Virus record (IMG/VR): IMGVR_UViG_2974651877_000001
Span: 1-64,000 of that record
Direction: 5' to 3' (one strand)
DNA length: 64,000 nt
Source: a virus
Taxonomy: Duplodnaviria; Caudoviricetes
Each line of letters starts with the position of its first letter. Position 1 is the first letter of the stretch. Under the pieces are notes generated by a model. That model was not told the DNA's origin, made no database searches, and saw nothing but the letters and a program-made list of their open reading frames with translations. A program made the position numbers and the translations under genes. Positions 40,346 to 52,551 of this stretch are shown here, in pieces.

Positions 40346-40422
40346 TGAGGTGTAGCTCAGTAGGTCAGAGCTGGGGAATCATAATCCCTGAGTCGGCGGT
40401 TCGAGTCCGCCCACCTCAACCA
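40346..40422 (+). tRNA. tRNA-Met (CAT)
   Basis: Cloverleaf with TTCGA T-loop and encoded CCA. Confidence 0.85.
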
Positions 40423-40480
40423 AATAATTTAAAATTACGTTTGCCCAATCTCTTTGAGTATTATATAATATTCAAACAAA

Positions 40481-40840
40481 TTGGAAAACAAAGCTAAGGA
40501 GCTTATTATGCCATGTAGAAGCTACGAACCAATCGACGTAGAACGAGCAGAGAAGCATTCTGCCCAACAAGAAGTACGTCAATTAAAGAATAGTCTAGGT
40601 AAAGCCCATACTCATATGGATAACCTAACACGTATGCTTTGCTATGTAGTTACCAAGGCTATAGAGGAAGATGTCGATACAGATATCCTAAATAACGAAG
40701 TGCGGGACTGGTATACAGCACATCGTCAAGCTGACCTGAACAACATGCGTGAGCTTATGGAGAATGTTGACCTAGACAGTCTTCCGAAAGAAGAATTTGA
40801 TACAGTTGACCGAATTTTGAGCAAATACCAAAAGAAATAA
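40481..40840 (+). CDS. Hypothetical protein
   Basis: Own promoter at 40441-40469; likely start MPCRSYE after AAGGAG. Confidence 0.7.
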   Translation: MENKAKELIMPCRSYEPIDVERAEKHSAQQEVRQLKNSLGKAHTHMDNLTRMLCYVVTKAIEEDVDTDILNNEVRDWYTAHRQADLNNMRELMENVDLDSLPKEEFDTVDRILSKYQKK

Positions 40841-40905
40841 AAAATCATTAGCTCAACAGTCGAAAAGTTTGATATAATAATCAAACAAATTGAGAAAAGA
40901 ATAGA

Positions 40906-40983
40906 AGCGGTTTTAGTCACGGCTGGTGCTGTTCCTGGGCTCATATCCCAGGCTGAGGGGTTCGATTCCTCACTCCGCAACCA
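40906..40983 (+). tRNA. Initiator tRNA-fMet (CAT)
   Basis: 1:72 mismatch, GGG/CCC anticodon stem and CCA. Confidence 0.85.
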
Positions 40984-41057
40984 ATTTGGTTCTGCATGAC
41001 CCCAAACTATATGCAGGTAAAACCTAGGATACGGTGCCTAGGAAACCAAAAACAAAT

Positions 41058-41237
41058 TGTTTATCAGGTTTTGGGTCTTTAGGCTAAAACCGACGTACAT
41101 CCTGACTTAGTACCTTGAGTGAGAACGACGTGAGAATGAAACCAACGAACGCTACGGCTCAGTAGTTGCGGATTCCAATACCTGACCAATACCGATAGGG
41201 AAAAGTAAAGCCACCGAGGTTTACTGGTAAGCAACCA
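41058..41237 (+). ncRNA. Putative CCA-terminated structured RNA (not a cloverleaf)
   Basis: tgtttatcag/ctggtaagca 10-bp closing stem followed by ACCA; internal hairpins. Confidence 0.5.
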
Positions 41238-41340
41238 AATTCAGGTGAACTGCGAAACTCTCGACTACCATCGTTCGCAAGTAGTTTACCGAATCCCGCT
41301 AGTGGACAGGGCGGTATATAAGTACTTCCACCCAGATAGT

Positions 41341-41418
41341 TGGGGCGAAGCTTAAGTGTGTATAAGCACCGGACTTTTAATCCGGCGATAGTGGGTTCGA
41401 ATCCCATCGCCCCTACCA
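41341..41418 (+). tRNA. tRNA-Lys (TTT)
   Basis: ccgga-cttttaa-tccgg anticodon arm; CCA. Confidence 0.9.
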
Positions 41419-41425
41419 AGTTAAT

Positions 41426-41500
41426 GCACTAGAAGGCGAAAGGCTAGCCGGCTCCCTTTCAAGGAGTTGTAAGCGGGTTCGATACCCGTCTAGTGTTCCA
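41426..41500 (+). tRNA. tRNA-Glu (TTC)
   Basis: gctcc-ctttcaa-ggagt anticodon arm; CCA. Confidence 0.88.
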
Positions 41501-41507
41501 AATCAAT

Positions 41508-41582
41508 TCACCGGAAGGCAAATGGCGAGCCATCTCCCTTTCAAGGAGACGTTAGCGAGTTCGATTCTCGTCCGGTGAACCA
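41508..41582 (+). tRNA. tRNA-Glu (TTC), second copy
   Basis: tctcc-ctttcaa-ggaga anticodon arm; CCA. Confidence 0.88.
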
Positions 41583-41583
41583 G

Positions 41584-41766
41584 ATTTCTTTAGTTAACAT
41601 TCTGAACTCGTGCCAGCGCAAGAAAACATGCCCAGTGAGGGAGATGACAAGGTGGCGGATGTCTTGGAGATTTGCAACTCCGATGGTGTAAAAGAGGGCT
41701 ATGGACGACCGCGAAAGAATGGGAGTAGCGAGTAACGTGTGGCTTAGGGTGTTAAGCTAAAGAAAT
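41584..41766 (+). ncRNA. Putative ~180-nt structured RNA with long terminal stem
   Basis: atttctttagttaacattct pairs with agggtgttaagctaaagaaat. Confidence 0.55.
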
Positions 41767-41823
41767 TTAAAAAATCAATTGCCTGAGACTCAGGCAATTG
41801 ATATAATAATCAAACAAATTGAG

Positions 41824-41980
41824 ATTTCTTTGAGAAAGCGAACAAAGACGATAGCAGCTAAATGTGGGTATAACACTGCTGAAATCCTCAGGGCACCCTC
41901 AACGCGCAAACCTGTATGCGAAAGAGTCGGAGTTCACGTTGTCTGTAACCGGTTTGGACGACAGCTTTCATCAAAGAGAT
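41824..41980 (+). ncRNA. Putative ~160-nt structured RNA
   Basis: Starts just after the promoter at 41779-41807; atttctttga-gaaagc pairs with gctttc-a-tcaaagagat. Confidence 0.55.
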
Positions 41981-41983
41981 TTC

Positions 41984-42059
41984 GGGGTCTTAGCTCAGTT
42001 GGGAGAGCAGGGTCTTTGCAAGGCTCAGGTCGAGGGTTCGAGTCCCTCAGATTCCACCA
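41984..42059 (+). tRNA. tRNA-Ala (TGC)
   Basis: G3:U70 pair, tttgcaa loop and CCA. Confidence 0.92.
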
Positions 42060-42064
42060 AATTT

Positions 42065-42155
42065 GTCGTATTAAACGTCTATGGAGGACGGCAGGATTGT
42101 AGTCCCTGTGTCTGCGAAAGCGGCTCCCTAGGTTCGATTCCTAGATGCGGCACCA
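42065..42155 (+). tRNA. tRNA-Tyr (GTA)
   Basis: ttgtagt loop, long variable arm and CCA. Confidence 0.85.
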
Positions 42156-42162
42156 TTACAAT

Positions 42163-42241
42163 GCGGTTGTTTGAGTCCACTATACTTGTGTGATATAAGA
42201 TTAATTCTAGGAGAAAACTGACTCAACCTAGAGCCGCACCA
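42163..42241 (+). ncRNA. CCA-terminated mini-RNA
   Basis: gcggtt/agccgc plus ACCA; inner ttgagtc/gactcaa stem; no T-loop or anticodon arm. Confidence 0.5.
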
Positions 42242-42247
42242 AACAAC

Positions 42248-42325
42248 GGGTGAGAAGCATAAGTGAGTATATGCGGTCGGCTGTTAACCGAAAGATAGAG
42301 GGTTCAAGTCCCTCCTTGCCCGCCA
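42248..42325 (+). tRNA. tRNA-Asn (GTT)
   Basis: ctgttaa loop and CCA. Confidence 0.9.
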
Positions 42326-42404
42326 AATTATGAAAACTTTCAATAGCCTAATGAGTTTATTATTGCTATAATAACTTTAGAAATTGAGAGAAAAGGAAAA
42401 ACGT

Positions 42405-42578
42405 ATGTTTAATCAGTTTATGGTAATTAGTTCTATGGGTTGGATTATCCCTAAAGGTGATAAAATGAAAGCAGCTTTGTATGCTTACGCTTATGGAGCC
42501 AGTCTAAAAACGGTTAGACAACAATTCGGTATCAGCAAACGTCGCTTGAAGAAAGCGATAAATGCTGGAAACTGGTAA
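42405..42578 (+). CDS. Small hypothetical protein
   Basis: Own promoter at 42344-42372; AAGGA RBS; MFNQFMVIS... Confidence 0.65.
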   Translation: MFNQFMVISSMGWIIPKGDKMKAALYAYAYGASLKTVRQQFGISKRRLKKAINAGNW

Positions 42579-42670: not shown

Positions 42671-42749
42671 TGGGAGTTACCTCGAAGCTGGTTACCGTCA
42701 GAAGCGCAGGCTAAAGAAAAGCCTATAATACCTGCGCTGCTCCCACCCA
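42671..42749 (+). ncRNA. CCA-terminated mini-RNA
   Basis: tgggagt/gctccca plus CCCA; inner agcgcagg/cctgcgct stem. Confidence 0.5.
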
Positions 42750-42755
42750 AACAAT

Positions 42756-42831
42756 GCGTCTAAGTATACGGGTTATGCCGCGCGCCTTCCAAGCGTTGCA
42801 GAGTGGGGTTCGATTCCCCCTAGACGCTCCA
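42756..42831 (+). tRNA. tRNA-Gly (TCC)
   Basis: cttccaa loop, U73 and CCA. Confidence 0.88.
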
Positions 42832-42847: not shown

Positions 42848-43051
42848 ATGATTGTGTTTATTAATGAGAGCCAAGAAGTCTCACTATATTCTGACCTAGG
42901 TCAGTGTTTTGACAACGAGATTAACTTTCGTTTTAGTAAGATTCTTAACACAGAAACCGGAGAACTATACGTCTACGATGACGCCGGTGCTCTTGATTAC
43001 CAAACCGTAATAGAGGTCTTCGATGATGAGTACGAAGACGAAGACGAATAA
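42848..43051 (+). CDS. Small acidic hypothetical protein
   Basis: GGAG RBS; MIVFINES...DDEYEDEDE. Confidence 0.65.
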   Translation: MIVFINESQEVSLYSDLGQCFDNEINFRFSKILNTETGELYVYDDAGALDYQTVIEVFDDEYEDEDE

Positions 43052-43052: not shown

Positions 43053-43127
43053 GCTGGTATACACAAGCAGGGCATGTGCGGGGCTGATAACCTCTGAAGA
43101 CTGGTTCGAGTCCAGTTACCAGTACCA
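43053..43127 (+). tRNA. tRNA-Ile (GAT)
   Basis: ctgataa loop, T-arm and CCA. Confidence 0.82.
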
Positions 43128-43134: not shown

Positions 43135-43217
43135 GCACGCATAGCCGAGGGGTACTACGAATGCCCTATCCGTAAGAGGAGCTGAAAATGGTGGTTCGAG
43201 TCCATCTGCGTGTGCCA
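43135..43217 (+). tRNA. Non-canonical tRNA-Arg-like RNA (ACG) without a D-arm
   Basis: Acceptor gcacgca/tgcgtgt plus GCCA, canonical T-arm, and a gggta-ctacgaa-tgccc hairpin ~8 nt after the acceptor strand. Confidence 0.6.
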
Positions 43218-43223: not shown

Positions 43224-43300
43224 CAGAGCGTAGGGCAGTCTGGTAGCCTACTCCACTTGGAATGGAGATGTCGCAGGTTCAAATCCTGCCGCTCTGACCA
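43224..43300 (+). tRNA. tRNA-Pro (TGG)
   Basis: ctcca-cttggaa-tggag anticodon arm; CCA. Confidence 0.92.
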
Positions 43301-43307: not shown

Positions 43308-43384
43308 CGGTGCTTAGCTCAGTAGTGTAGAGCGCTCCGTTTGGGACGGAGGGGTCGTGGGTTCGAGTCCTACAGTGCCGACCA
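43308..43384 (+). tRNA. tRNA-Pro (TGG), second copy
   Basis: ctccg-tttggga-cggag anticodon arm; CCA. Confidence 0.92.
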
Positions 43385-43533: not shown

Positions 43534-43612
43534 GGGGTGTGATAGCTTTTGTGACTTAACCTTGAGAGACTAGGAGTAAGTGAGAGTTTATCGGGTTTAC
43601 CCAACCCCTCCA
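43534..43612 (+). ncRNA. CCA-terminated mini-RNA
   Basis: ggggt/acccc plus TCCA enclosing an imperfect long hairpin. Confidence 0.45.
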
Positions 43613-43618
43613 ATTTAT

Positions 43619-43690
43619 GGACAGATGGTGTAACGTAACACGCTAGCCAGCCAAAGGCTAGAGCGGGGTTATAATCCTCAATGTCCGCCA
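43619..43690 (+). tRNA. Degenerate tRNA-like gene (possible CCA/Trp anticodon, G33, atypical T-loop)
   Basis: ggaca/tgtcc plus GCCA, gtg/cac D-stem, ctagcc-agccaaa-ggctag, and a ttataat T-loop. Confidence 0.45.
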
Positions 43691-43696
43691 AACAAT

Positions 43697-43773
43697 AGCG
43701 GGTTAGTTTAATTGGTAAAACCTTGGATTTTGATTCCAAAGTCGCAGGGGTTCGAATCCCCCACCCGCCGCCA
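43697..43773 (+). tRNA. tRNA-Gln (TTG)
   Basis: ttgga-ttttgat-tccaa anticodon arm; CCA. Confidence 0.9.
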
Positions 43774-43774
43774 A

Positions 43775-44830
43775 AGAGGAGACACCAGAGCCTTGCAACA
43801 GTTCTGGTATGGGGTGGCTAGCAAGAGCCTGCCCACAGGGTGTCTAGTATATGCACTCACGGTCGATGCCCTTGGAAGATAGGGAATATATAAAGCCGCC
43901 GATACCTTCGGGTTAGGGGCTTCGGAAGTTCGCTTCTGGATTCTAGCAAGTCCGCTATAAACCGTGCCGAAAGGCAGCGCACGGGGAATCACAAAAGTGT
44001 ACTTGTACATTTTCGGCTGTATCTGGTCGTTAGAATAATCTATCGAAAGGTAGGAAGGGCATTACCCACCCAGGGTGTCGCCGGTCTTCGGACGGTTCGT
44101 GGATAAAAGTACGAGACTCCTAGATATAATTTACCTCTAGGGCTTCCTGAAAGAAAAGGGGAGAAAAGTCAAGAAAACTAGAGCGAGGTTCGTAGGTAGG
44201 GTATGCCTATGGATACTGGGAAGATAACCAAGAGCCCTAAAGAAGACCGCAATCTTCTGCCTCGATGCAACTCTGGAAGACCGACGAAAGTCTAACGTAT
44301 AACACATTAGTGCGAGCAGTCATGTAAGTGCGGTGTGTACCAAAACAAGGTTGGGTTGAAGAATCTAAATCTTGCAAGGAGTTTAGTAGCGGGAACGTGA
44401 ACGACATGACTGAGTGGAATATCCGGTTATCCAAAAGGTAACGGGCTCCTGTGGGGACACTCAGTTGGGATGCTTAACATACAATGAACTAGACAGTTAA
44501 TCTAATCTTCATAGGATTTATATAAAAGCAAAAGAGCCCCACGGTACATGTTGAAAGGCGGTTAATTCCTAGCCCCCTCAAGGAACTAGGAGCATAGAAG
44601 GTCGCAAGCCTGATATGTTTTATCGGAAAAAGAATTTAGCGTCTTAGCGGATGCGAACGGGTCGCAAGCTCGGAAGGAATGGAACGATAGAGTAGACATG
44701 TATGACACTCCCACAGCATGGAGTCTAAATATTGCACCGCTGTTCGGATACCAGTGAGAACTGGTGGATAAGCCCTAAGACATACGGGTAGTGAAAGACC
44801 GGACAATGTAAGCCGTAATCTCAGGCTGAA
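43775..44830 (+). ncRNA. Giant structured non-coding RNA, GOLLD-like
   Basis: ~1.05 kb with no + strand ORF in the track, many GNRA/UUCG hairpins, long-range pairings, a 3' agccgtaatctcaggct end and a tRNA-cluster context. Confidence 0.7.
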
Positions 44831-44840
44831 TATTTTGAGG

Positions 44841-44920
44841 ATTCTTTGAGTTGTGTTCGGTGAAGTGGGTTGCCCTCCCAAAGGGTCGTCAGAACTTCCG
44901 AATATAACTCATCAAAGAAT
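44841..44920 (+). ncRNA. Long hairpin RNA (~80 nt)
   Basis: attctttga-gttgtgttcgg pairs with ccgaatataactc-a-tcaaagaat. Confidence 0.5.
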
Positions 44921-44929
44921 AGATTTAAT

Positions 44930-45006
44930 GCAGGAATGGCGGAATTGGCATACGCGCTGGACTTAGAATCCAGATTTTGAGAGTTCGAGTCTCTCTTCCT
45001 GTACCA
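44930..45006 (+). tRNA. tRNA-Leu (TAG) with short variable loop
   Basis: ctgga-cttagaa-tccag anticodon arm; CCA. Confidence 0.9.
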
Positions 45007-45011: not shown

Positions 45012-45035
45012 AGGGCGAGAAATCGCCCTATTTTT
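45012..45035 (+). terminator. Intrinsic terminator
   Basis: agggcga-gaaa-tcgccct followed by attttt. Confidence 0.7.
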
Positions 45036-45041
45036 ATCCCT

Positions 45042-45118
45042 GCTCGCATGGTCAAATTGGCATAGGCAATAGACTTAAAATCTATGGTATGTGGGTTCGA
45101 CTCCCACTGCGAGTACCA
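45042..45118 (+). tRNA. tRNA-Leu (TAA) with short variable loop
   Basis: ataga-cttaaaa-tctat anticodon arm; CCA. Confidence 0.9.
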
Positions 45119-45250: not shown

Positions 45251-45347
45251 GGAAGAGTAAGCCGAAAGATTCTGGGTAACGGCAACGGTCTTGAAAACCG
45301 TCAGTCACTTAACGGGCGTGTGGGTTCGAATCCCACTTCTTCCGCCA
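45251..45347 (+). tRNA. tRNA-Ser (TGA)
   Basis: acggt-cttgaaa-accgt, long variable arm, G73 and CCA. Confidence 0.88.
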
Positions 45348-45437: not shown

Positions 45438-45500
45438 ATTAAAATCTTCAATAGCTAAATAACCTAAATTTCTATATAATATATTTATAGAATTAAGAAA
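45438..45500 (+). promoter_or_regulatory. Repeated promoter module, copy 1
   Basis: TAGCTA-17-TATAAT; 57/63 identical to 45920-45982. Confidence 0.8.
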
Positions 45501-45509
45501 GGTATTCGC

Positions 45510-45920
45510 ATGAAGATAAAAACCATGAGTAGAGGCTACAATCCTAGCATAAAGATTTCAAATATGTCAGTATCTTTGTTTATTAGGATGCAAGATGGAG
45601 AAACTTATCAGGTAGGTGTTATTAGACGACCTCTATCTAACCTAGGCTACGGACACGCTTTAATCACTAACGGAGATTACAATAGCAAAAACGTTACCCT
45701 AGAGCAGATAACTAAGCACTTAAAGGATGCGTATGAGCACATCTTAGGCCTAGACCCCAAGTCTGTTTCTTATTTTGACTTCTCGGTAGGTATACTGGAC
45801 TACCACCACGGTAGACTACTATGGTCAGCCAAGAGTACTGATAATGAGGATATTCACGCCACATTACGGAGCTTTAAGACTTTAGTTAAAAATTCCTTTG
45901 CGGTTTCTAAACTACAATAA
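45510..45920 (+). CDS. Hypothetical protein
   Basis: 136-aa ORF between the two promoter repeats. Confidence 0.7.
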   Translation: MKIKTMSRGYNPSIKISNMSVSLFIRMQDGETYQVGVIRRPLSNLGYGHALITNGDYNSKNVTLEQITKHLKDAYEHILGLDPKSVSYFDFSVGILDYHHGRLLWSAKSTDNEDIHATLRSFKTLVKNSFAVSKLQ

Positions 45921-45982: not shown

Positions 45983-45992
45983 GGGCAAGAGC

Positions 45993-46998: not shown

Positions 46999-47075
46999 GC
47001 AGCGGTAGCTCAGTTGGTTAGAGCGGTGGATTGAAGTCCCACAGGTCGAGGTCTCGATACCCTCTCGCTGCACCA
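46999..47075 (+). tRNA. tRNA-Phe (GAA)
   Basis: ttgaagt loop, slightly atypical T-loop and CCA. Confidence 0.85.
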
Positions 47076-47081: not shown

Positions 47082-47143
47082 GCCCCACTAGTTAGTGGTC
47101 TATACTCCGGAGATGGCGGTTCGATTCCGTACGTGGGGCTGCA
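47082..47143 (+). pseudogene. tRNA remnant lacking an anticodon arm
   Basis: gccccac/gtggggc acceptor and gcgg-ttcgatt-ccgt T-arm; ends in TGCA. Confidence 0.55.
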
Positions 47144-47158
47144 ATTTAGGAGAACGTA

Positions 47159-47476
47159 ATGGACAGAGACCCAGCATTTCAAGAGTGGCTTGACCGTCAG
47201 CCTAAGTGTGACGAGTGCGGTAAACCACAGACCACACTACATAAGCATTATGAGCATTGTTCTAAGTACGAGCACATAGTTGACGACCATTACGATTCTG
47301 CGTGTATGCGTGGTACGTGTAAGCACTGCTTCCCTAACTACGTTGCTAAGGTTACTATGGAAGTTACCGAACAAGAAAAGTCGCTAATAAAAGCACTTAG
47401 AGACCCAGGTAGTTCAATGGCTGCTATTTACCACCACATAAAGAAAGTAGCAGCTTTCTTTAAGAAAGTACATTAG
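47159..47476 (+). CDS. Cys/His-rich hypothetical protein
   Basis: CDEC and CKHC motifs; AGGAG RBS. Confidence 0.7.
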   Translation: MDRDPAFQEWLDRQPKCDECGKPQTTLHKHYEHCSKYEHIVDDHYDSACMRGTCKHCFPNYVAKVTMEVTEQEKSLIKALRDPGSSMAAIYHHIKKVAAFFKKVH

Positions 47477-47587
47477 TTTCAGAACAACAGGAGCACCGCC
47501 TAACCGTAGGGCTTCTGCTGAAAGACCGTTTAACTGAGAGCGCTTGCACGGTCGGAGGGGTTAAAGTCCTCAGCAAGCCAACAAATT

Positions 47588-47720
47588 ATTTTTTGAGCAC
47601 TCTGTACAGCTAGTCCCTCTCTTGGTTGAGATACTAGCTCTGTTGGAGTAGTGACCTGAGGAAACCAAAGGCTAGGTTTACACTGAACCCAAGTCTGCGA
47701 GGATAGAGTGCTCAAAAAAT
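47588..47720 (+). ncRNA. Putative ~130-nt structured RNA
   Basis: ttttttgagcactct...agagtgctcaaaaaat closing stem; internal agctagt/actagct. Confidence 0.55.
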
Positions 47721-47727
47721 AAAAAAC

Positions 47728-47936: not shown

Positions 47937-48245
47937 ATGTTTAAAGGAATTCGTAGATGGTTCCATAAAACTTTCGGTACATGCACTTGGGGAACCCCAA
48001 TTAAGACCTTTGACTTTGTGCCTGTGGAACACGCTAATATTCGATATTGCACCCATGAACTGTGTAACAAAACTTGCACTAAAACAGCAGACCTAGATAC
48101 TATAGCTAAATACAAAGAAGCCCAAAGAATAGAGCTTGAAAAGTCTAGGGTAAGTAAGGCAGCGTCGGCAAAGCAGCCAGAGACGGTTGCAGTAGATAAA
48201 GCGGCACGTAGAGCAAAGCGGGCACTAAAACGAAATAAGCCCTAG
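47937..48245 (+). CDS. Hypothetical protein
   Basis: GAGGTG RBS; 102 aa. Confidence 0.7.
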   Translation: MFKGIRRWFHKTFGTCTWGTPIKTFDFVPVEHANIRYCTHELCNKTCTKTADLDTIAKYKEAQRIELEKSRVSKAASAKQPETVAVDKAARRAKRALKRNKP

Positions 48246-48462
48246 GAGGGATTATGATTTACTGCAAAGACACTCAAGGCTACCTACGCAGAGTAGCATA
48301 CGGAACCTTCAACCAAAACTGGAGTCTTATACAGAACCCTGCTAGAGTTAAAGAAATGCTGAGACAGACTCTAAACATCCACACGAACGGAGCAGTCTTG
48401 GTACTTGTCAAATAACCCCCAAGGGCGCGAACGAAAGTTGTCGCCCTATTTTTGTATCCGAG

Positions 48463-48756
48463 GTGTTTATGCCACGATTTAAGAAACGTAATAAAACCTT
48501 CCTATCAGAGTCACACGAGGAATTTGGCAGTGTATCCTGGTATGTTAAGGAAAGAGGTGATTGGGGCTCTGACGTTCAAAGTGAGATTCGCATCACAGAC
48601 TGTTACAAGGTAGTAACTCTAGACTTTTGTGCAGAAAGCCCTTCAGACGCTAAAAAGCGCCTAGAAAAGCTAGATACTTTGATTACCGAACTACAAGAAG
48701 CTCGAAAAGCCCTACAAGAGTGCGTTGATTTACGCTGGAACCGTAAATACATTTAA
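48463..48756 (+). CDS. Hypothetical protein
   Basis: GAGGTG RBS; IRITDCYKVVTLDF motif. Confidence 0.7.
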   Translation: MFMPRFKKRNKTFLSESHEEFGSVSWYVKERGDWGSDVQSEIRITDCYKVVTLDFCAESPSDAKKRLEKLDTLITELQEARKALQECVDLRWNRKYI

Positions 48757-48823
48757 TCTTTACTAGCCTTTTGTCCGATTTTTCCGTATAATACTTGTAT
48801 AAACTGAAAAGAAGGGATAAAAG

Positions 48824-49096
48824 ATGAGTAACCACGTAATCCTAAGCAAAGAACTGTACACTAAGGTAATGGAGCAGCTAAATCAGTTCGCTAACTACCG
48901 TGACGATTCTGAAGGAGTATTGCAAGGTATTCTGACAGAAGCAGAAGCGGCAAAGCAAGCCAGCGAAGGCGTAGTCCCTGTACATAGAGAAGACTTATCT
49001 ACTGTAATTTCCCTAGCAGGTTACGAAGTAGAGTATGCCGACGAAGAAGACCAGAAAACATACGCTAAGTTAGTAGATTTGACTATAGGAGAGTAG
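48824..49096 (+). CDS. Hypothetical protein
   Basis: Own promoter at 48764-48792. Confidence 0.7.
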   Translation: MSNHVILSKELYTKVMEQLNQFANYRDDSEGVLQGILTEAEAAKQASEGVVPVHREDLSTVISLAGYEVEYADEEDQKTYAKLVDLTIGE

Positions 49097-49099
49097 GCT

Positions 49100-49354
49100 A
49101 TGCAAGGGTGTAAAAATTGTCACGAACTTTTAGATGTACTATTAGACGAGTGTGACCAATGTGGCAGTACAGACCTGGAACCTGTAGTTGAGTGTGTTCA
49201 CTGTGGCTGCTGGGTTTCCGAAGACCACGTAGACAGGGCGGGACTATGCGACTCTCAGGGCAATGACTGTGCCTCTGACCCAGACTTAGTAGATGAGTAC
49301 GACGGTGAAGCCGTCGATACTATCTTAGCTTTATCTAAACAACTATTGCGATAG
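49100..49354 (+). CDS. Zinc-finger-like hypothetical protein
   Basis: CKNC, CDQC and CVHC motifs. Confidence 0.7.
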   Translation: MQGCKNCHELLDVLLDECDQCGSTDLEPVVECVHCGCWVSEDHVDRAGLCDSQGNDCASDPDLVDEYDGEAVDTILALSKQLLR

Positions 49355-49356
49355 GA

Positions 49357-49545
49357 GTGTGTATGTCTCTAACAGAAGGAAAAATGCGTCAAGTACCTAG
49401 GCCACCTAGGCCACCAGGCTTACGGAGTAGAGGGCCAACTAGGGAGCAAGCAGTATCTATGGCCTTTACTGTAGGTACAGTAGTAGGTGTAATCCTGGGC
49501 ATAGTATTTATGTTCGTTGTAACTAGTATAGCAGCTATGCAGTAA
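49357..49545 (+). CDS. Small membrane protein
   Basis: Pro/Arg-rich N-terminus and C-terminal hydrophobic helix. Confidence 0.55.
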   Translation: MCMSLTEGKMRQVPRPPRPPGLRSRGPTREQAVSMAFTVGTVVGVILGIVFMFVVTSIAAMQ

Positions 49546-49621
49546 ATTATTAAAATCTTTAATAGCTTAGCAGCCCAAATTTCCGTATAATATCTGTATA
49601 AATTGAGAAAAGGAAACAGAC

Positions 49622-50110
49622 ATGAGCAAGGCACTTTACGATTTAGTTGACCAAATCTCTGACATGGATGACGAAGTCCATGAAATGCTACCAGGCTATA
49701 TTAAAGATTTTAATACTATGCTGCTAGTAGAGCCTATTATGGCTCTGGCAGATACCAAGGCACTAGAGCTTAAGTATCGTAAACAGCTAGTTTATCTCTT
49801 TAGAGAAGAGCTAGACTCTTGGAACTGCATTCCAGAGTACACGGGAGAGTATCTACTATCTTTCAGTAGAGACCGAGTTTGCTATGCCGAAAAGCAGGTT
49901 AAGCTGACTAAGTACGTAGGGGACTGTAAGGAAACCCTGTCAATACCAATCTTTTCGTTCGAGAAGCTGCGTAAGGTACAGGATGAAGCTTATCGCATTG
50001 TGAACTCGTTAAATGCGGAATATGCTACTGAACAGTCTAGTAAGGCCGCTTTGGAGAAAGAAAAACGTCGCCAACAGTTCGAAAAGCTAAAACGAGAATT
50101 CGGAGAGTAA
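49622..50110 (+). CDS. Hypothetical protein
   Basis: Own promoter at 49563-49591; ends with FEKLKREFGE. Confidence 0.75.
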   Translation: MSKALYDLVDQISDMDDEVHEMLPGYIKDFNTMLLVEPIMALADTKALELKYRKQLVYLFREELDSWNCIPEYTGEYLLSFSRDRVCYAEKQVKLTKYVGDCKETLSIPIFSFEKLRKVQDEAYRIVNSLNAEYATEQSSKAALEKEKRRQQFEKLKREFGE

Positions 50111-50112
50111 TC

Positions 50113-50346
50113 ATGTCAAAAACAGTAATTGATACTGAAACCTTAGAGAAGATTCTGACCCTTGGTAAAGTAGCCTCTCTAGTTATGTTGGCTTCCAAAG
50201 ATATGGTAGCACATCATGGAGCAGAGTCCTTGCTCTCACAGGGAGAGCAGGCTATTAAGGACAGCATGGGTCTTCGTATCTTCACTAAAGAAGAAGTAGC
50301 CGCATTAGAAAAGCATTTCGACCTCGGAGCATTCTTCGAGGAATAG
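50113..50346 (+). CDS. Hypothetical protein
   Basis: GGAG RBS; 77 aa. Confidence 0.7.
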   Translation: MSKTVIDTETLEKILTLGKVASLVMLASKDMVAHHGAESLLSQGEQAIKDSMGLRIFTKEEVAALEKHFDLGAFFEE

Positions 50347-50354
50347 CAGACAAA

Positions 50355-50430
50355 GGGCGATACGCTGAAGACTCGAAGCGCGGGATTGCAAACTCCGTCT
50401 TAGTGGGTGGGAGTCCCACATTGCCCTCCA
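50355..50430 (+). tRNA. tRNA-Cys (GCA) with atypical T-loop
   Basis: ttgcaaa loop, U73 and CCA; T-loop tgggagt. Confidence 0.75.
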
Positions 50431-50610
50431 GATAAGGTAAGAAAATGCCAAAAAATAGAGCAGAAAAGAACGGTCTAGGAGTATGGGTATGTAAGCCCGT
50501 AAAAGAGGAAGAAGACTGGTTCTCCAAGCACGATAGCTTTATAAAGGGTGCTATCTTAGGTGCCTCAGCAATGTATATACTAGCCCTATTCCTATTTTAG
50601 AAACTACTCT

Positions 50611-51024
50611 TTGGAGAGCACAATGAAAGAAGTTATTTTAAAAGCCGGCTATACCCTTAAAATAGTATCTTGGGAAAACGACGCTGACTTCTACAATACC
50701 AAAACCTATCACGTAGAGGACGAGAATTGGGCTATTATTTTAAAGCATATCTGTGAGAACTTACTATGCTCTCGATACTCTAGCTCTAGTGACTACGGAG
50801 TAGGTAATACTAACCTATCTAGTAGCGACAGTGCTAATAGAGTAGCAGAGTATTTTAAAACCTATGGTATTCCAGAACACGTTCCAGAAGACGAACTTCT
50901 TGAATGGCTACACGACCTATCCTACGATTTAGTAGGTAGCTCCTACGAAAGTGATTGTATACGAGTATGTGAGTCGTGTAAAGTCTTGTACACTCCAGTT
51001 GATATTGAGGTAGAAACTCTATAA
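50611..51024 (+). CDS. Hypothetical protein
   Basis: GYTLKIVSWENDADFYNT motif. Confidence 0.7.
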   Translation: MESTMKEVILKAGYTLKIVSWENDADFYNTKTYHVEDENWAIILKHICENLLCSRYSSSSDYGVGNTNLSSSDSANRVAEYFKTYGIPEHVPEDELLEWLHDLSYDLVGSSYESDCIRVCESCKVLYTPVDIEVETL

Positions 51025-51053
51025 CAATCTGCCGAAGCCTTTACTAGGCTTCA

Positions 51054-51224
51054 CATTTAAGCACTCTTGAACGCTAAGGACGTGAGACACCCTTAGCATA
51101 CGGAAATCCGGTATCCACTACAGGGTCTCAACGGCGGTGGGTTAAAGGCTCCTATAATAGCGGCTGGAGCGATGCCATGGGAAGTAGCTATCCCTAAGAG
51201 CTGACTGTGTAGAGTGCTTAAATG
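51054..51224 (+). ncRNA. Putative ~170-nt structured RNA
   Basis: Perfect catttaagcactct/agagtgcttaaatg stem; gctaagg/ccttagc hairpin whose loop tgagac can pair with downstream gtctca. Confidence 0.55.
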
Positions 51225-51300
51225 TGACGTTGGCTGATGTGGAAATGGCTCCGGGTTGTGATTCCGGATAATGCGGGTTCGAACCCCGTACGTCACCCCA
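51224..51300 (+). tRNA. tRNA-His (GTG)
   Basis: ttgtgat loop, C73 and CCA; position -1 is U. Confidence 0.9.
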
Positions 51301-51506
51301 AATTATCGCAGTACCGGCTTCTGAACGCTGCTCGACAGAACATCGTCGAATAGATAAGGCAAAACGGCGTGAAGTGACTCCACGTAAATCGATTTCTAGG
51401 CGTCCGAGTCTATGGTGGTAAATTCCTATAGTCGACAATGGGTTCCACCACAACCAATTAACCAACTAACCAAAGAACTAATCAAGTTAACTTATATAGG
51501 ATTAAT

Positions 51507-51761
51507 ATGTTTTCAATAAAACTATTTCTGCCTTCTGAGAAAGATAAGTCTATGTCTGAGTCAGCAGGAGTATCCGCAGTTTACTATGCTACTAAGCCGG
51601 AGTACACTCAGGATGACCAATTTGTACATCATGTTTTTGAGTGCGAAGATGTCAACGGGGGTAAATACTACTGGCCACTAACCCAAGGTACTAGGGTTTA
51701 CGTAGAGAACTCAGCAGGTAAAACAATAGCCCATTTCTATGGTGGTGGCCCTATCGACTAG
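51507..51761 (+). CDS. Hypothetical protein
   Basis: VYVENSAGKTI C-terminal motif; AGGA RBS. Confidence 0.7.
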   Translation: MFSIKLFLPSEKDKSMSESAGVSAVYYATKPEYTQDDQFVHHVFECEDVNGGKYYWPLTQGTRVYVENSAGKTIAHFYGGGPID

Positions 51762-51840
51762 GGTACATATTAAAACCCTCCGAAGTACTAGAGGGTTTTC
51801 ACATGTAACCGACTAACTATATTACTTTATAAGGATTGAT

Positions 51841-52095
51841 ATGTTTAAACTATTAATTAAATTCCCTCTAGTACGAAAAATCTACCGAGCTTTCGTGCCC
51901 CTTCAAACATCTGACAGCCTAGCTGAGCAGTTTACTGGTAAGTTCAAACGTGTGGTTCAGGAGCAGAATGAAATTGCTAAGGAGTACACCCGTAAAGAAG
52001 TAGAGGCGAATACCCGCCGAGTAGCAGCAGAAAAAGAAGCCGCTCGTGCAGCTAAAGCCGCAAAGAACTTCCAAGACATGCTGGAGAAAGACTAA
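51841..52095 (+). CDS. Hypothetical coiled-coil protein
   Basis: AAGGA RBS; 84 aa. Confidence 0.7.
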   Translation: MFKLLIKFPLVRKIYRAFVPLQTSDSLAEQFTGKFKRVVQEQNEIAKEYTRKEVEANTRRVAAEKEAARAAKAAKNFQDMLEKD

Positions 52096-52262
52096 ATTCT
52101 CAGTAAGCCCCTTTGTAATAAATAAGATGTCAATACGGCTTCTAATTATAGAGACCAGACGACTTCTTCTTGTTACAAAAAATCCCGTCTACCTCAAAAG
52201 GCTAGAGGTAGACCTAAAGAACTACTTAGCCATACAAAATCTACTAGAGCAAGGAGATTAGA

Positions 52263-52457
52263 ATGCCTCTATTTAAAGGTACGGTACTAAGCGAAAAGTT
52301 CGGCGCTAAAATCGAACTACTTTCCCCAGTTAAAAACGGCTGTGCAGTCGTTCGAGTACTGGAAGTTGGCGAGATGCTAGAAGGCGTCAACAAGAATCAA
52401 GTTGTAAAAGACTTTGCAGTTACTTTTGGCGTTCTACGCTTCACTCCTGTAAAGTAA
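52263..52457 (+). CDS. Hypothetical protein
   Basis: AAGGAG RBS; 64 aa. Confidence 0.65.
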   Translation: MPLFKGTVLSEKFGAKIELLSPVKNGCAVVRVLEVGEMLEGVNKNQVVKDFAVTFGVLRFTPVK

Positions 52458-52464
52458 TACCTAC

Positions 52465-52551
52465 GCGGGGTGTCCCCACATCTCCCTTCTAAGGAGATAG
52501 CGTATAAAAGTGGGAAGGAGCTGAGGGGTTCGATTCCTCCACCCTGTTCCA
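52465..52551 (+). tRNA. Non-canonical tRNA-Arg-like RNA (TCT) without a D-arm
   Basis: gcggggt/accctgt plus TCCA, T-arm, and an atctcc-cttctaa-ggagat hairpin nested inside cccac/gtggg. Confidence 0.6.

What the first reader, a model, noticed from the sequence alone, without database searches (positions are those of the whole stretch)
40346..52551. The tRNA cluster is a ~12-kb structured-RNA locus with a dozen or more unexplained RNAs placed like tRNAs
Seen: besides 26 cloverleaf tRNAs, nearly every spacer that is not a gene folds into a closed, multi-hairpin, ORF-free unit. These are one ~1.05-kb giant RNA, two rewired Arg tRNA-like RNAs, at least four CCA-ended non-tRNAs, six RNAs closed by related long stems and several further units. 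Many sit between the same short spacers (aacaat, aaatt) as the true tRNAs. Established: T5 encodes tRNAs plus additional stable RNAs in this region, and phage tRNAs can offset tRNA-cleaving defences. Inference: this is a co-processed phage RNA arsenal (decoys, scaffolds, substitute tRNAs), mostly invisible to standard annotation. It is my best candidate for an undescribed system.
Basis: partly seen in the sequence, partly recalled or inferred. Interest (0 to 1): 0.85.

Follow-up and report, generated by a model that had tools for sequence, protein, structure and literature searches.

The report
Phage tRNA cluster with extra RNAs
The tRNA gene cluster of this T5-like Vibrio phage also carries a known giant GOLLD RNA, two oddly built arginine tRNAs and several conserved small folded RNAs that end like tRNAs, much as phage T5 itself does, but nearly half of the stretch is ordinary small protein genes.

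Summary
The window is the early tRNA region of a Pogseptimavirus (T5-like Vibrio phage; 95.6% identical to vB_ValS_X1).

**Confirmed**
- There are 26 cloverleaf tRNA genes with encoded CCA.
- The giant RNA is a GOLLD RNA (Rfam RF02032, 185 bits against a cut-off of 150).
- Two D-arm-less arginine tRNAs (ACG, UCU) are real. In 20 distinct UCU-type sequences 99.8% of cells pair and 14 of 24 pairs covary.
- Three further non-tRNA RNAs show covariation in other phage lineages.

**Not confirmed**
- I found four long-stem units, not six.
- "Nearly every spacer" overstates it. Some spacers fold no better than shuffles, and others are promoters or terminators.
- 44% of the 12.2 kb is 20 small protein genes.

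**Reading**
This is not one system. It is a mosaic of modules with different distributions, driven by at least 9 promoters. The kind is known: a T5 GenBank record annotates six such RNAs. The families here are new, and this scan has noted similar ones in other phages. No expression data exist, and the decoy idea is untested.

The parts
40346..40422 (+). tRNA-Met (CAU)
   Evidence: ARAGORN; Rfam 63.9 bits
40907..40981 (+). tRNA-Met-like (CAU) with a weak acceptor stem and weak D arm
   Evidence: ARAGORN relaxed; Rfam 27.3 bits, below cut-off; homologue in L111 is called tRNA-Met at default settings
41341..41418 (+). tRNA (annotated Lys in X1)
   Evidence: Rfam 56.1 bits; X1 annotation
41426..41500 (+). 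tRNA-Glu (UUC)
41508..41582 (+). tRNA-Glu (UUC)
41984..42059 (+). tRNA-Ala (UGC)
42065..42155 (+). tRNA-Tyr (GUA), long variable arm
   Evidence: ARAGORN relaxed; Tyr annotated in X1
42248..42325 (+). tRNA (annotated Asn in X1)
   Evidence: Rfam 48.8 bits
42587..42665 (+). tRNA-Asp (GUC)
42756..42831 (+). tRNA-Gly (UCC)
   Evidence: ARAGORN relaxed
43053..43127 (+). tRNA-Ile (GAU)
43135..43217 (+). Rewired tRNA-Arg, anticodon loop CUACGAA (ACG), no D-arm hairpin
   Evidence: ARAGORN calls it Arg-CCG; Rfam tRNA 25.8 bits, below cut-off. The hairpin that carries ACG covaries in 3 sequences. Found in 297 phage records, 293 of them Vibrio
43224..43300 (+). tRNA-Pro (UGG)
43308..43384 (+). tRNA-Pro (UGG)
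43697..43773 (+). tRNA-Gln (UUG)
44930..45006 (+). tRNA-Leu (UAG), only 77 nt
45042..45118 (+). tRNA-Leu (UAA), only 77 nt
45251..45347 (+). tRNA-Ser (UGA)
   Evidence: ARAGORN relaxed; Rfam tRNA clan 35.8 bits; Ser annotated in X1
46251..46325 (+). tRNA-Thr (UGU)
46332..46404 (+). tRNA-Trp (CCA)
46646..46721 (+). tRNA-Val (UAC)
46728..46803 (+). tRNA-Met (CAU)
46999..47075 (+). tRNA (annotated Phe in X1)
   Evidence: Rfam 51.1 bits
47728..47815 (+). tRNA-Ser (GCU)
   Evidence: ARAGORN relaxed; Rfam clan 36.4 bits
47823..47913 (+). tRNA-Ser (GGA)
   Evidence: Rfam 35.6 bits
50355..50430 (+). tRNA-Cys (GCA) between two ORFs
   Evidence: ARAGORN relaxed
51224..51300 (+). tRNA-His (GUG)
52465..52551 (+). 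Rewired tRNA-Arg (UCU). Acceptor stem, then a 5-bp helix that carries the anticodon hairpin, a 2-bp pseudoknot, T arm, UCCA end
   Evidence: No Rfam hit at E<=1. 20 distinct sequences: 99.8% of cells paired, 14 of 24 pairs with changes on both sides, 0 of 500 shuffles reach this. 336 phage records
43777..43990 (+). Conserved non-coding unit upstream of GOLLD. It is homologous to the Pro-to-Leu spacer of Thalassavirus phages and of L111, which show no GOLLD
   Evidence: Alignment A5, (structure not resolved); blast
43991..44856 (+). GOLLD RNA. The conserved 3' domain is 44407-44827. The 5' limit is taken from where homology to phage D321 starts
   Evidence: Rfam RF02032, 185 bits, cut-off 150; alignment; also in X1, SJ1, PG07 and D321 at 176-190 bits; D321 homology over 43991-44856
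44847..44911 (+). Hairpin between GOLLD and tRNA-Leu
   Evidence: 16-position stem, 15 paired
41583..41768 (+). Glu-to-Ala spacer RNA closed by a 22-bp stem
   Evidence: z -2.5. Homologues in VCPH, Chester and Morian. 22 of 22 stem pairs are kept in 7 sequences, 5 of them with changes on both sides
41819..41985 (+). Long-stem unit between a promoter and tRNA-Ala
   Evidence: z -3.2. Found only in the four Pogseptimavirus genomes. Same placement as T5 RNA2H
47586..47722 (+). Long-stem unit (22 positions, 21 paired) ending 5 nt before tRNA-Ser
   Evidence: z -4.9; the full unit is matched only in the four Pogseptimavirus records, other records match only 47520-47587
51051..51227 (+). Long-stem unit (17 bp, perfect) whose 3' arm overlaps the first 4 nt of tRNA-His
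   Evidence: In X1 and SJ1 the core is replaced but the stem is kept, with C:G changed to U:A
42162..42244 (+). 83-nt RNA that ends like a tRNA. A 6-bp acceptor-like stem stacks on a 3' hairpin and is followed by ACCA
   Evidence: z -2.1 for the spacer; 312 Vibrio phage records in 3 sequence types; 2 compensatory pairs
42671..42750 (+). 80-nt RNA that ends like a tRNA. Three-way junction with a 6-bp closing stem stacked on an 8-bp hairpin, ending ACCCA (ACCA in D321 and L111)
   Evidence: 6 distinct sequences, including a Chryseobacterium phage and a metagenome contig: 100% of cells paired, 13 of 17 pairs with changes on both sides, 0 of 500 shuffles reach this
41058..41240 (+). Candidate 180-nt CCA-ended unit, unverified
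   Evidence: z -0.3; the matching block is absent from PG07; only 3 variable sites among close relatives
43534..43612 (+). Candidate 79-nt CCA-ended unit, unverified
   Evidence: z -0.7; no match in PG07 beyond 43543
43618..43692 (+). Degenerate tRNA-like element ending GCCA plus AACAAU
   Evidence: ARAGORN relaxed, 'Trp'; z -2.1; spacer motif
47082..47145 (+). Truncated tRNA-like element (7-bp acceptor-type stem and T arm, no CCA) in the 5' leader of ORF 47159
   Evidence: T-arm repeat family D7; fold; z -0.8
47510..47582 (+). Conserved two-hairpin element (85% identical in D321). Its outer stem is not kept in D321
46558..46636 (+). Conserved stem-closed unit just upstream of tRNA-Val, weak support
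   Evidence: 75% identical in D321; 1 compensatory pair in the closing stem
40263..40327 (+). Promoter copy (TATAAT family) upstream of tRNA-Met
   Evidence: repeat families D3 and D6
40441..40488 (+). Promoter TTGCCC-17-TATAAT upstream of ORF 40508
   Evidence: (D10)
40863..40897 (+). Promoter copy upstream of the Met-like tRNA
   Evidence: D6, D10
41779..41826 (+). Promoter TTGCCT-17-TATAAT with TG, between the two long-stem units
42330..42394 (+). Promoter copy upstream of ORF 42405
   Evidence: D3, D6
45438..45502 (+). Promoter copy upstream of ORF 45510
   Evidence: D3
45920..45984 (+). Promoter copy (91% identical to 45438) upstream of ORF 45993
   Evidence: D3
48750..48814 (+). Promoter copy upstream of ORF 48824
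   Evidence: D3
49549..49613 (+). Promoter copy upstream of ORF 49622
   Evidence: D3, D6
45012..45037 (+). Terminator-like hairpin with a T run, between the two Leu tRNAs
52561..52591 (+). Terminator-like hairpin with a T run, at the end of the cluster
40508..40840 (+). Small protein gene (110 aa)
   Evidence: variable sites by codon position 5:3:33; CDS in X1 and PG07
42405..42578 (+). Small protein gene (57 aa)
   Evidence: phrog_13267
42848..43051 (+). Small protein gene (67 aa)
   Evidence: 9:4:24
45510..45920 (+). ORF, 136 aa, with no homologue in the three closest relatives
45993..46250 (+). ORF, 85 aa, with no homologue in the three closest relatives
46818..46994 (+). Small protein gene (58 aa)
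   Evidence: 0:0:7
47159..47476 (+). Small protein gene (105 aa)
   Evidence: 4:1:21
47937..50346 (+). Run of eight small protein genes: 47937-48245, 48254-48415, 48463-48756, 48824-49096, 49100-49354, 49357-49545, 49622-50110, 50113-50346
   Evidence: third-position bias and gaps only in multiples of 3; phrog_12065 for 48463
50445..51024 (+). Two small protein genes: 50445-50600 and 50611-51024
   Evidence: phrog_2290
51507..52457 (+). Three small protein genes: 51507-51761, 51841-52095, 52263-52457
   Evidence: phrog_37428

Best explanation
This is the early tRNA module of a T5-like (Demerecviridae, Pogseptimavirus) Vibrio phage. It is a mosaic of independent cassettes, all on one strand.

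**What the DNA holds (shown)**
- 26 cloverleaf tRNA genes.
- Two arginine tRNAs whose D domain is rewired. These are the cluster's only Arg decoders.
- One GOLLD RNA, with a separate conserved unit of about 215 nt in front of it.
- Three small or mid-sized RNAs with covariation support, plus several weaker candidates.
- 20 small protein genes.
- At least 9 copies of a sigma-70 promoter and 2 terminators.

**How it most likely works (inferred, not shown)**
- Host RNA polymerase makes several polycistronic precursors.
- RNase P cuts at the 5' side of every acceptor-type stem.
- RNase E and 3' exonucleases cut in the A/U-rich AACAAU-type spacers and trim back to the encoded CCA.
- The 17-22-bp closing stems that abut tRNA ends are likely RNase III sites.
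- The non-tRNA units would therefore be released as stable, tRNA-like-ended RNAs, like RNAs I, III, IV, 1, 2 and 2H of T5.

**Function**
- The two Arg tRNAs most likely decode CGU/CGC/CGA and AGA/AGG for the phage.
- GOLLD most likely forms the RNA cage reported for that family.
- What the small units do in trans, if anything, is unknown.
For: **Identity and layout**
- 95.6% identical to Vibrio phage vB_ValS_X1, Pogseptimavirus.
- A T5 record shows the same interleaving of tRNAs, small ORFs and many early promoters. A second T5 record annotates six misc_RNA genes among the tRNAs.
- Their folds show the same two designs: long closing stems (RNA2H, RNAIII, RNAIV) and an acceptor-like stem followed by GCCA (RNAI).

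**GOLLD**
- 185 bits against a cut-off of 150, full model length.
- Present at the same place in 4 of 5 relatives' loci.

**Arg tRNAs**
- UCU type: 20 distinct sequences, 99.8% of cells paired, 14 of 24 pairs changed on both sides, 0 of 500 shuffles as high, slid controls 38-48% paired.
- ACG type: anticodon stem, T stem and acceptor stem covary in 3 sequences, and the loop CUACGAA is invariant.
- Codon use in 17 long ORFs: CGU+CGC+CGA 274, AGA+AGG 142, CGG 1, out of 417 Arg codons.

**Other RNAs**
- 80-nt unit: 100% of cells paired, 13 of 17 pairs changed on both sides.
- Glu-Ala unit: 22 of 22 stem pairs kept, 5 changed on both sides.
- 83-nt unit: 2 compensatory pairs.

**Coding against non-coding**
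- In 18 ORFs the variable sites fall 67:40:257 by codon position (p 9e-51).
- The nine spacers show no such phase.

**Spacers and signals**
- The spacer motif is shared by tRNAs and non-tRNA units.
- Promoter repeat families and terminators are present.
Against: - No RNA data. No RNA run holding this DNA could be found, so no 5' or 3' end, abundance or stability is shown for any unit.
- Processing by RNase P, RNase E and RNase III is inferred from shape and from what I recall of T4 and T5 work.
- Two of the four long-stem units (41819, 47586) have homologues only in four near-identical genomes. They rest on fold energy alone (z -3.2 and -4.9, with boundaries chosen by eye).
- Two CCA-ended candidates and three whole spacers fold no better than shuffles.
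- The window's units show no sequence similarity to the six T5 RNAs. The likeness is one of kind and placement only.
- Charging of the rewired Arg tRNAs is untested, and the usual D-loop identity position of tRNA-Arg cannot be placed.
- The sequences for one search were gathered with a pattern that fixed the loop, the T arm and part of one helix. Those columns are invariant by construction.
Confidence: 0.72

Rival explanations
1. Processing punctuation only. The folded spacers have no job of their own. They insulate neighbouring tRNAs from misfolding and give RNase P, RNase E or RNase III defined cutting sites, so that tRNAs and the small mRNAs between them are released cleanly. The excised pieces are waste.
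For: - Units abut tRNA ends exactly. The 3' arm of 51051-51227 overlaps tRNA-His, and 41583 starts at the CCA of tRNA-Glu.
- In 51051-51227 the core is replaced in X1 and SJ1 while the stem is kept.
- In the Glu-Ala unit the stem is far better conserved than the interior.
- A truncated tRNA-like element sits in the leader of ORF 47159.
Against: - The 80-nt and 83-nt units have long unpaired stretches that are nearly invariant between distant lineages. Punctuation alone would not require that.
- The 80-nt unit recurs in a Chryseobacterium phage with all stems rewritten and the loops kept.
- GOLLD is a large, autonomously folding RNA (passages read).
Confidence: 0.3
2. Anti-defence arsenal. The tRNA-ended RNAs act as decoys or sponges for host nucleases that attack tRNAs. 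The rewired tRNAs escape such nucleases.
For: - The units copy the acceptor and T-arm half of a tRNA, with stacked helices of 12-14 bp followed by NCCA.
- By a strict pattern, the rewired UCU tRNA is found in 20 viral contigs and in 1 contig from 185,579 bacterial and archaeal species genomes.
- A review states that phage tRNAs may counter tRNA-depleting enzymes such as VapC, PrrC and colicins D and E5 (passages read, PMC11025619).
Against: - There is no experimental or genomic link to any defence system.
- No anticodon-loop mimicry is seen in the 80-nt and 83-nt units.
- Codon supply alone explains the two Arg tRNAs.
- The T5 RNAs of the same kind have no function noted in the record.
Confidence: 0.12
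3. Decay and recombination debris. The odd units are dying tRNA genes and scars of cassette exchange, under no selection.
For: - Degenerate tRNA-like pieces exist at 43618-43692, 47082-47145 and 45344-45432.
- The block 41050-41238 is simply absent from PG07, and other cassettes differ between close relatives.
- Several candidates fold no better than shuffles.
Against: - This cannot explain the units that covary across lineages.
- It cannot explain the near-invariant loops.
Confidence: 0.15
4. DNA-level signals. Some conserved 'RNAs' are really promoters, operators or other protein-binding DNA sites.
For: - Nine spacer segments are promoter copies.
- By my own reading of the sequence printed, the invariant core of the 83-nt unit contains TTGAGT, a 17-nt gap, then TATAAG preceded by TG.
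- The loop of the 80-nt unit holds TATAAT.
Against: - The stems show G-U pairs and compensatory changes, which are strand-specific RNA features.
- The TATAAT-bearing loop is also kept in a Chryseobacterium phage. As I recall, the promoter consensus of that host group differs.
Confidence: 0.1

Closest known systems
Phage T5 tRNA-region stable RNAs (misc_RNA RNAI, RNAIII, RNAIV, RNA1, rna2, RNA2H in GenBank AY692264)
   Same: - Same virus family.
- Same placement among tRNA genes on the same strand, between early promoters.
- Same two designs. RNA2H is closed by a stem of about 22 bp and lies between a promoter and tRNA-Ala, like 41819-41985. RNAI has an acceptor-like stem followed by GCCA.
   Different: - No detectable sequence similarity to any unit of the window.
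- That the T5 RNAs were seen as stable species is my recollection of the older literature, not something a call showed.
GOLLD RNA (Rfam RF02032)
   Same: - Full-length match above the curated cut-off.
- Lies in a phage, next to tRNA genes, as described for the family (passages of bioRxiv 10.1101/2024.12.08.627333).
   Different: - Nothing found that sets it apart.
- A T5-like Vibrio phage host was not mentioned in the 10 papers listed of the 20 that hold both 'GOLLD' and 'Vibrio'.
- A separate conserved 215-nt unit sits directly upstream.
Phage T4 'RNA species I and II' in the T4 tRNA gene region
   Same: Non-tRNA RNAs encoded inside a phage tRNA cluster. A figure legend of PMC2330249 names 'RNA species I and II'. 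Their tRNA-like ends are recalled, not checked.
   Different: The T4 sequences were not fetched or compared here. T4 belongs to a different virus family.
D-arm-less mitochondrial tRNA-Ser(AGY) of animals
   Same: A working tRNA without a D-arm hairpin that reads AGN codons (abstracts listed).
   Different: - Here the D-stem position is filled by a helix made from two distant strands, plus a 2-bp pseudoknot.
- The anticodons are those of arginine.
- The genes are in phages.
tRNA acceptor/T-arm minihelix
   Same: The 80-nt and 83-nt units stack a 6-bp terminal stem on a 6-8-bp hairpin and end in NCCA. That this is the half of a tRNA read by RNase P and the CCA-adding enzyme is established knowledge that I recall.
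   Different: - They carry extra domains with conserved loops.
- They have no T-loop sequence.

Membership tests
GOLLD RNA (RF02032) | Covariance-model score at or above the curated gathering score, over the full model | tested here: met
   185 bits against 150; model positions 1-416 of 416; E 4.7e-51; alignment shown
GOLLD RNA (RF02032) | Conserved in relatives at the same locus | tested here: met
   176.4-189.9 bits in X1, SJ1, PG07 and D321. No hit in the Morian stretch. That is 4 of 5 loci
GOLLD RNA (RF02032) | Large (about 800 nt), non-coding, with a less conserved 5' half | tested here: inconclusive
   43774-44929 shows no codon phase. D321 homology spans 43991-44856, 866 nt. The 5' end itself is not mapped
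GOLLD RNA (RF02032) | Assembles into a 14-mer RNA cage | not testable with these tools
   Property reported for another member (passages)
Canonical tRNA (RF00005), for 43135-43217 and 52465-52551 | 7-bp acceptor stem, discriminator base and CCA; T arm with a UUCGAWU loop; 7-nt anticodon loop | tested here: met
Canonical tRNA (RF00005), for 43135-43217 and 52465-52551 | D-arm hairpin between acceptor and anticodon arms, and a score above the family cut-off | tested here: not met
   Only 8 nt separate the two arms. Rfam gives 25.8 bits (cut-off 29) for one and no hit at E<=1 for the other. In the UCU type a 5-bp helix made of distant strands takes that place
Canonical tRNA (RF00005), for 43135-43217 and 52465-52551 | Charged with an amino acid and used by the ribosome | not testable with these tools
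   Only indirect: the anticodons match 416 of 417 Arg codons
T5 tRNA-region stable RNAs | Encoded among the tRNA genes of a Demerecviridae phage, on the same strand, with a closing stem or an acceptor-like end plus CCA | tested here: met
   searches compared
T5 tRNA-region stable RNAs | Sequence homology to RNAI, RNAIII, RNAIV, RNA1, rna2 or RNA2H | tested here: not met
   blastn gives only short T-arm-type matches. The nhmmer output printed (cut at 3000 characters) shows no hit for the first three queries, RNAIII, RNAI and RNA1
T5 tRNA-region stable RNAs | Seen as discrete stable RNA species in infected cells | not testable with these tools
   No RNA run listed
T4 RNA species I and II | Sequence or structure homology | not tested
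   T4 sequences were not fetched
tmRNA (considered for 42671-42750) | tRNA-like domain plus a tag reading frame, detected by ARAGORN or Rfam | tested here: not met
   No tmRNA in the window. The homologue in the Chryseobacterium phage lies just upstream of a permuted tmRNA and overlaps the start of its ARAGORN call (745) by about 28 nt; I do not read it as one of the tmRNA's pieces
Any other Rfam 15 family (for the small units) | A match at E<=1 | tested here: not met
   32 matches at E<=1. Apart from one weak beta_tmRNA match that touches 42848-43051, all lie on tRNAs, GOLLD or tRNA-like elements, and none lies on 41583-41983, 42162-42244, 42671-42750, 47586-47722 or 51051-51227

The most novel reading that the evidence does not exclude
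The tRNA-ended small RNAs and the rewired arginine tRNAs could be parts of one phage strategy for a cell whose tRNA pool is under attack, whether by host defence nucleases or by the phage's own shut-off. On this reading the rewiring makes the phage's Arg decoders invisible to enzymes that read the normal tRNA elbow. The half-tRNA mimics would soak up or redirect enzymes that recognise the acceptor and T-arm half. GOLLD would cage or scaffold these RNAs. Nothing here excludes this, and nothing here tests it.
Probability: 0.12. Interest if true: 0.85.

Novelty: new variant of a known kind. Interest (0 to 1): 0.58.

Why it matters
- **Annotation gap.** Phage tRNA clusters are usually annotated as tRNAs plus hypothetical proteins. 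Here at least six conserved RNA genes are missing from the public annotation of hundreds of related Vibrio phage records: GOLLD, two rewired Arg tRNAs and three small RNAs.
- **Missed tRNAs.** ARAGORN and the Rfam tRNA model miss or misread both rewired Arg tRNAs. As a result a phage that decodes all its Arg codons appears to lack tRNA-Arg. The same UCU design occurs in large phages of Acinetobacter and Aeromonas.
- **Testable families.** The small tRNA-ended RNAs provide new, well-defined families with which to ask what the unexplained stable RNAs of T4 and T5 are for.
- **What stays open.** If the units turn out to be only processing spacers, the practical gain is better annotation. The rewired tRNAs would remain of interest for how tRNA shape is read.

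Tried and rejected
- **Expression.** The look-up of sequencing runs listed one run of unknown kind holding 0.24 of the words, and no RNA holder. I did not lay reads. This says nothing about expression.
- **More homologues of the Glu-Ala unit.** A pattern scan of IMG/VR found only PG07. A looser pattern found 0 metagenome contigs.
- **Flanking-protein fetches.** These brought 15 and 80 IMG/VR loci. By identity only the PG07 copy (99% and 98%) is a close relative; the other loci are 27-34% identical. I did not use them further.
- **The 80-nt unit.** A strict pattern found 0 viral contigs. A looser one found PG07 only in IMG/VR, 2 metagenome contigs and 0 of the bacterial and archaeal genome contigs. 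BLAST with the Chryseobacterium copy found no further lineages.
- **tmRNA reading of the 80-nt unit.** Rejected.
- **ARAGORN's Arg-CCG call for 43135-43217.** Rejected. The CCG-bearing stem has mismatches, the ACG hairpin covaries, and CGG is 1 of 417 Arg codons.
- **Outer stem of 47510-47582.** Not kept in D321.
- **MAFFT of the four long-stem units.** Showed no common core.
- **Unit 43777-43990.** Conserved blocks, but the consensus fold had a positive covariation term, so I claim no structure.
- **Trans target for the 83-nt unit's loop.** Only the unit itself matched in the window.
- **PHROG searches.** 4 of 20 ORF products matched a family, all of unknown function.
- **Literature on D-arm-less phage tRNAs.** The search returned 252 papers. 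The 15 listed held none on phages.
- **Papers.**
  - Passages read: bioRxiv 10.1101/2024.12.08.627333, PMC7567579, PMC2330249, PMC11025619.
  - All other papers were seen as search listings only.
  - Supplements are closed. The GOLLD hit tables of the cryo-EM preprint may already list these Vibrio phages.
- **Recalled, not from any call.** The GOLLD discovery paper, the T5 stable-RNA papers, the role of RNase III in T4 tRNA processing, the Bacteroidota promoter consensus, and the substrate rules of RNase P and the CCA-adding enzyme.

Full report
**What the region is.** Window 40346-52551 is 95.6% identical, over 92% of its length, to Vibrio phage vB_ValS_X1. It is also close to VB_Vhy_SJ1 and vB_VpS_PG07. 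These are Demerecviridae of the genus Pogseptimavirus, that is, T5-like phages. The stretch lies between an exonuclease gene and a deoxynucleoside monophosphate kinase gene. Everything described below is on the + strand.

**tRNA genes.**
- ARAGORN at default settings finds 17.
- Rfam's tRNA model at its gathering score finds 19, four of which ARAGORN missed.
- ARAGORN at a relaxed threshold adds Tyr, Gly, two Ser and Cys, all with good cloverleaves. It also adds a Met-like gene at 40907-40981.
- The homologue of that Met-like gene in a metagenomic relative is called tRNA-Met at default settings.
- All of these genes encode CCA.

**The giant RNA is GOLLD.**
- 44407-44827 matches Rfam RF02032 over all 416 model positions at 185 bits. 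The cut-off is 150 and E is 5e-51.
- The same hit, at 176-190 bits, is present at the same place in X1, SJ1, PG07 and the more distant phage D321. It is absent from the fetched stretch of phage Morian.
- Nucleotide homology to D321 runs over 43991-44856. I take that as GOLLD proper, about 866 nt.
- The first 215 nt after tRNA-Gln (43777-43990) are a separate unit. They are homologous to the spacer between tRNA-Pro and tRNA-Leu in Thalassavirus phages and in a metagenome contig. In those stretches no GOLLD similarity turned up: an Rfam scan for Morian, and blastn with this window's GOLLD for the metagenome contig. The unit's structure could not be resolved.
- The cryo-EM preprint on GOLLD states that the family occurs in phages and prophages, often near tRNA islands, and forms a 14-mer cage (passages). 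This part of the finding is therefore a new member of a known family.
- In X1 and PG07 no RNA feature is annotated on this stretch (PG07 has one CDS, 6501-7031 of its locus, just after the GOLLD match); in D321 it is covered by short CDS calls labelled hypothetical protein.

**The rewired arginine tRNAs.** ARAGORN reads 43135-43217 as Arg-CCG through a poor stem.
- With the copies from D321 and a metagenome contig, that hairpin changes at nearly every pair and stays paired. The T stem and acceptor stem covary too, and the loop never changes.
- The second gene, 52465-52551, has the loop CUUCUAA (UCU) and gets no Rfam hit at all.
- BLAST finds the UCU type in 336 phage records: 299 Vibrio, 31 Acinetobacter, 3 Aeromonas, 2 Escherichia and 1 Salmonella. 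Every one of the 40 rows shown lacks a tRNA annotation.
- A pattern scan finds it in 20 IMG/VR contigs of 6.9-235 kb and in one bacterial genome contig.
- On 20 distinct sequences the structure is as follows:
  - a 7-bp acceptor stem;
  - a 5-bp helix formed by bases 11-15 with bases 46-50, which carries the 6-bp anticodon hairpin;
  - a 2-bp pseudoknot;
  - a T stem.
- This structure is paired in 99.8% of 480 cells. 14 of 24 pairs change on both sides, no shuffle out of 500 reaches this, and slid controls give 38-48%.
- One caution applies. The search pattern fixed the loop, the T arm and two G of the new helix, so only the other columns are free evidence.
- A first test on six BLAST-found sequences gave the same answer: 99.2% paired and 12 of 22 pairs changed on both sides.
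- Codon use fits a decoding role. In 17 long ORFs of the window the Arg codons are CGU 128, CGC 60, CGA 86, CGG 1, AGA 91 and AGG 51. ACG (as inosine) plus UCU would read 416 of 417, while a CCG anticodon would read one.
- No canonical tRNA-Arg was found in the cluster.

**Small RNAs that end like tRNAs.**

*42671-42750 (80 nt)*
- It lies between tRNA-Asp and tRNA-Gly, with AACAAU on both sides.
- Homologues were aligned from X1, PG07, D321, a metagenome contig (order there: Asp, unit, Arg-ACG, Pro) and Chryseobacterium phage MA9V-3. In MA9V-3 it sits just upstream of a permuted tmRNA gene.
- In six distinct sequences all 102 cells pair, and 13 of 17 pairs change on both sides.
- The loops, including a 21-nt hairpin loop, stay almost unchanged.
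- In D321 and the metagenome copy the unit ends in ACCA.

*42162-42244 (83 nt)*
- It occurs in 312 Vibrio phage records as three sequence types.
- Its 6-bp end stem and a 6-bp hairpin that stacks on it each show one compensatory change.
- About 40 interior bases are nearly invariant.

*Shared design and the weaker candidates*
- Both units thus copy the acceptor and T-arm half of a tRNA.
Homologues turned up only in the closest relatives, and the block 41050-41238 is missing from PG07. I leave them unverified.

**Long-stem units.** I find four.
- **41583-41768.** It starts at the CCA of tRNA-Glu and is closed by a 22-bp stem. Homologues lie between tRNA-Glu and tRNA-Ala in VCPH, Chester and Morian. 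All 22 pairs are kept in 7 sequences, and 5 of them change on both sides.
- **51051-51227.** It has a perfect 17-bp stem whose 3' arm covers the first four bases of tRNA-His. In X1 and SJ1 the core is replaced, while the stem is kept with one C:G changed to U:A.
- **41819-41985 and 47586-47722.** These rest on fold energy alone (z -3.2 and -4.9) and exist only in the four near-identical genomes.
- **Stem families.** The stems fall into two sequence-related pairs. GATTTCTTT occurs at 41583 and 41823. AGCACTCT paired with AGAGTGCT occurs at 47596/47705 and 51060/51211.
- I could not find six such units.

**What the rest is.**
- Twenty + strand ORFs take 5355 of 12,206 nt, 43.9%. In 47914-52551 the share is 75%.
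- For the 18 ORFs with homologues in X1, SJ1 or PG07, variable sites fall 67:40:257 by codon position (p 9e-51), and gaps come in multiples of three.
- Nine non-ORF spacers show no such phase. The split into genes and non-coding spacers is therefore sound.
- Nine spacer segments are copies of one promoter family with a TATAAT box. Two of them score 10 of 12 in the consensus scan.
- The overall count of promoter-like sites, 26, is not far above shuffles (18.9, sd 3.6).
- Terminator-like hairpins lie at 45012 and 52561.
- Whole spacers bounded by tRNAs or ORFs fold better than coding controls: mean z -2.13 for 9 spacers against -0.87 for 45 controls, p 0.0035.
- Three spacers are no better than shuffles.

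**Comparison with what is known.**
- One T5 record shows the same layout of tRNAs, small ORFs and many early promoters.
- The T5 st0 record annotates six misc_RNA genes among the tRNAs.
- Folded, these show the same designs. RNA2H has a closing stem of about 22 bp and lies between promoter P13b and tRNA-Ala, exactly as 41819-41985 does here. RNAI is closed by GGCUC/GAGCC followed by GCCA.
- No sequence similarity links them to the window's units.
- A T4 paper's figure legend names 'RNA species I and II' in the T4 tRNA region.
- The kind is therefore known and its function unexplained. The families here are new as far as Rfam 15 and my literature searches show.
- This scan has already noted rewired Arg tRNAs and tRNA islands with extra RNAs in other phage genomes.

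**Verdict.** The interpretation as one undescribed system is not supported. The region is a T5-type tRNA module built from independent cassettes. The giant RNA is GOLLD. The two Arg genes are the most surprising item and are very well supported as conserved RNAs, most likely working tRNAs. Three small RNAs are real, conserved and unexplained. Processing with the tRNAs is a fair inference. Decoy or scaffold roles are speculation. No expression data were available.

Noticed in passing
window 44930-45006 and 45042-45118: Both tRNA-Leu genes are only 77 nt long, CCA included, which leaves room for only a short variable region. The Leu genes of D321, VCPH and Chester are 84-85 nt. Leu tRNAs of bacteria normally carry a long variable arm (recalled).
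   Followed up: no
L108 691-772 and 745-1103 (Chryseobacterium phage MA9V-3): This phage carries a permuted (two-piece) tmRNA gene with tag GNVIDINKYVAKLEVAA. A homologue of the window's 80-nt unit lies directly upstream of it.
   Followed up: partly
window 41050-41238: This 189-nt block is missing from PG07, while the flanks align. It looks like a clean cassette gain or loss.
   Followed up: partly
window 45438-46250: Two ORFs (136 and 85 aa) have no homologue in X1, SJ1 or PG07. Each is preceded by a copy of the same 65-nt promoter segment, and the two copies are 91% identical. This suggests a recently swapped or duplicated cassette.
   Followed up: no
window, 17 long ORFs: CGG is used once among 417 Arg codons. 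CUA is the commonest Leu codon (301 of 791), which matches the phage's tRNA-Leu(UAG).
   Followed up: partly
L102 11736-11828 and 9942-10028 (Vibrio phage Chester): ARAGORN calls a 93-nt tRNA-Ile(UAU) and an 87-nt tRNA-Gly(UCC), both far longer than usual for these isotypes.
   Followed up: no
window 49548-49564 and 49699-49715: A perfect 17-bp inverted repeat joins the upstream part of the promoter copy at 49549 to a site inside ORF 49622-50110.
   Followed up: no
window 52591-52619: The best promoter match of the scan (TTGTCA, 17-nt gap, TATAAT; 11 of 12) lies directly after the cluster's terminator and ahead of the kinase gene.
   Followed up: no
L134 4231-4317 (Spirabiliibacterium pneumoniae contig): This is the only bacterial genome contig with the strict rewired UCU-tRNA pattern. 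It may be a prophage.
   Followed up: no
window 46939-46952 and 47087-47100: A stem of 14 positions (13 paired) brackets tRNA-Phe. One arm lies inside ORF 46818-46994.
   Followed up: no
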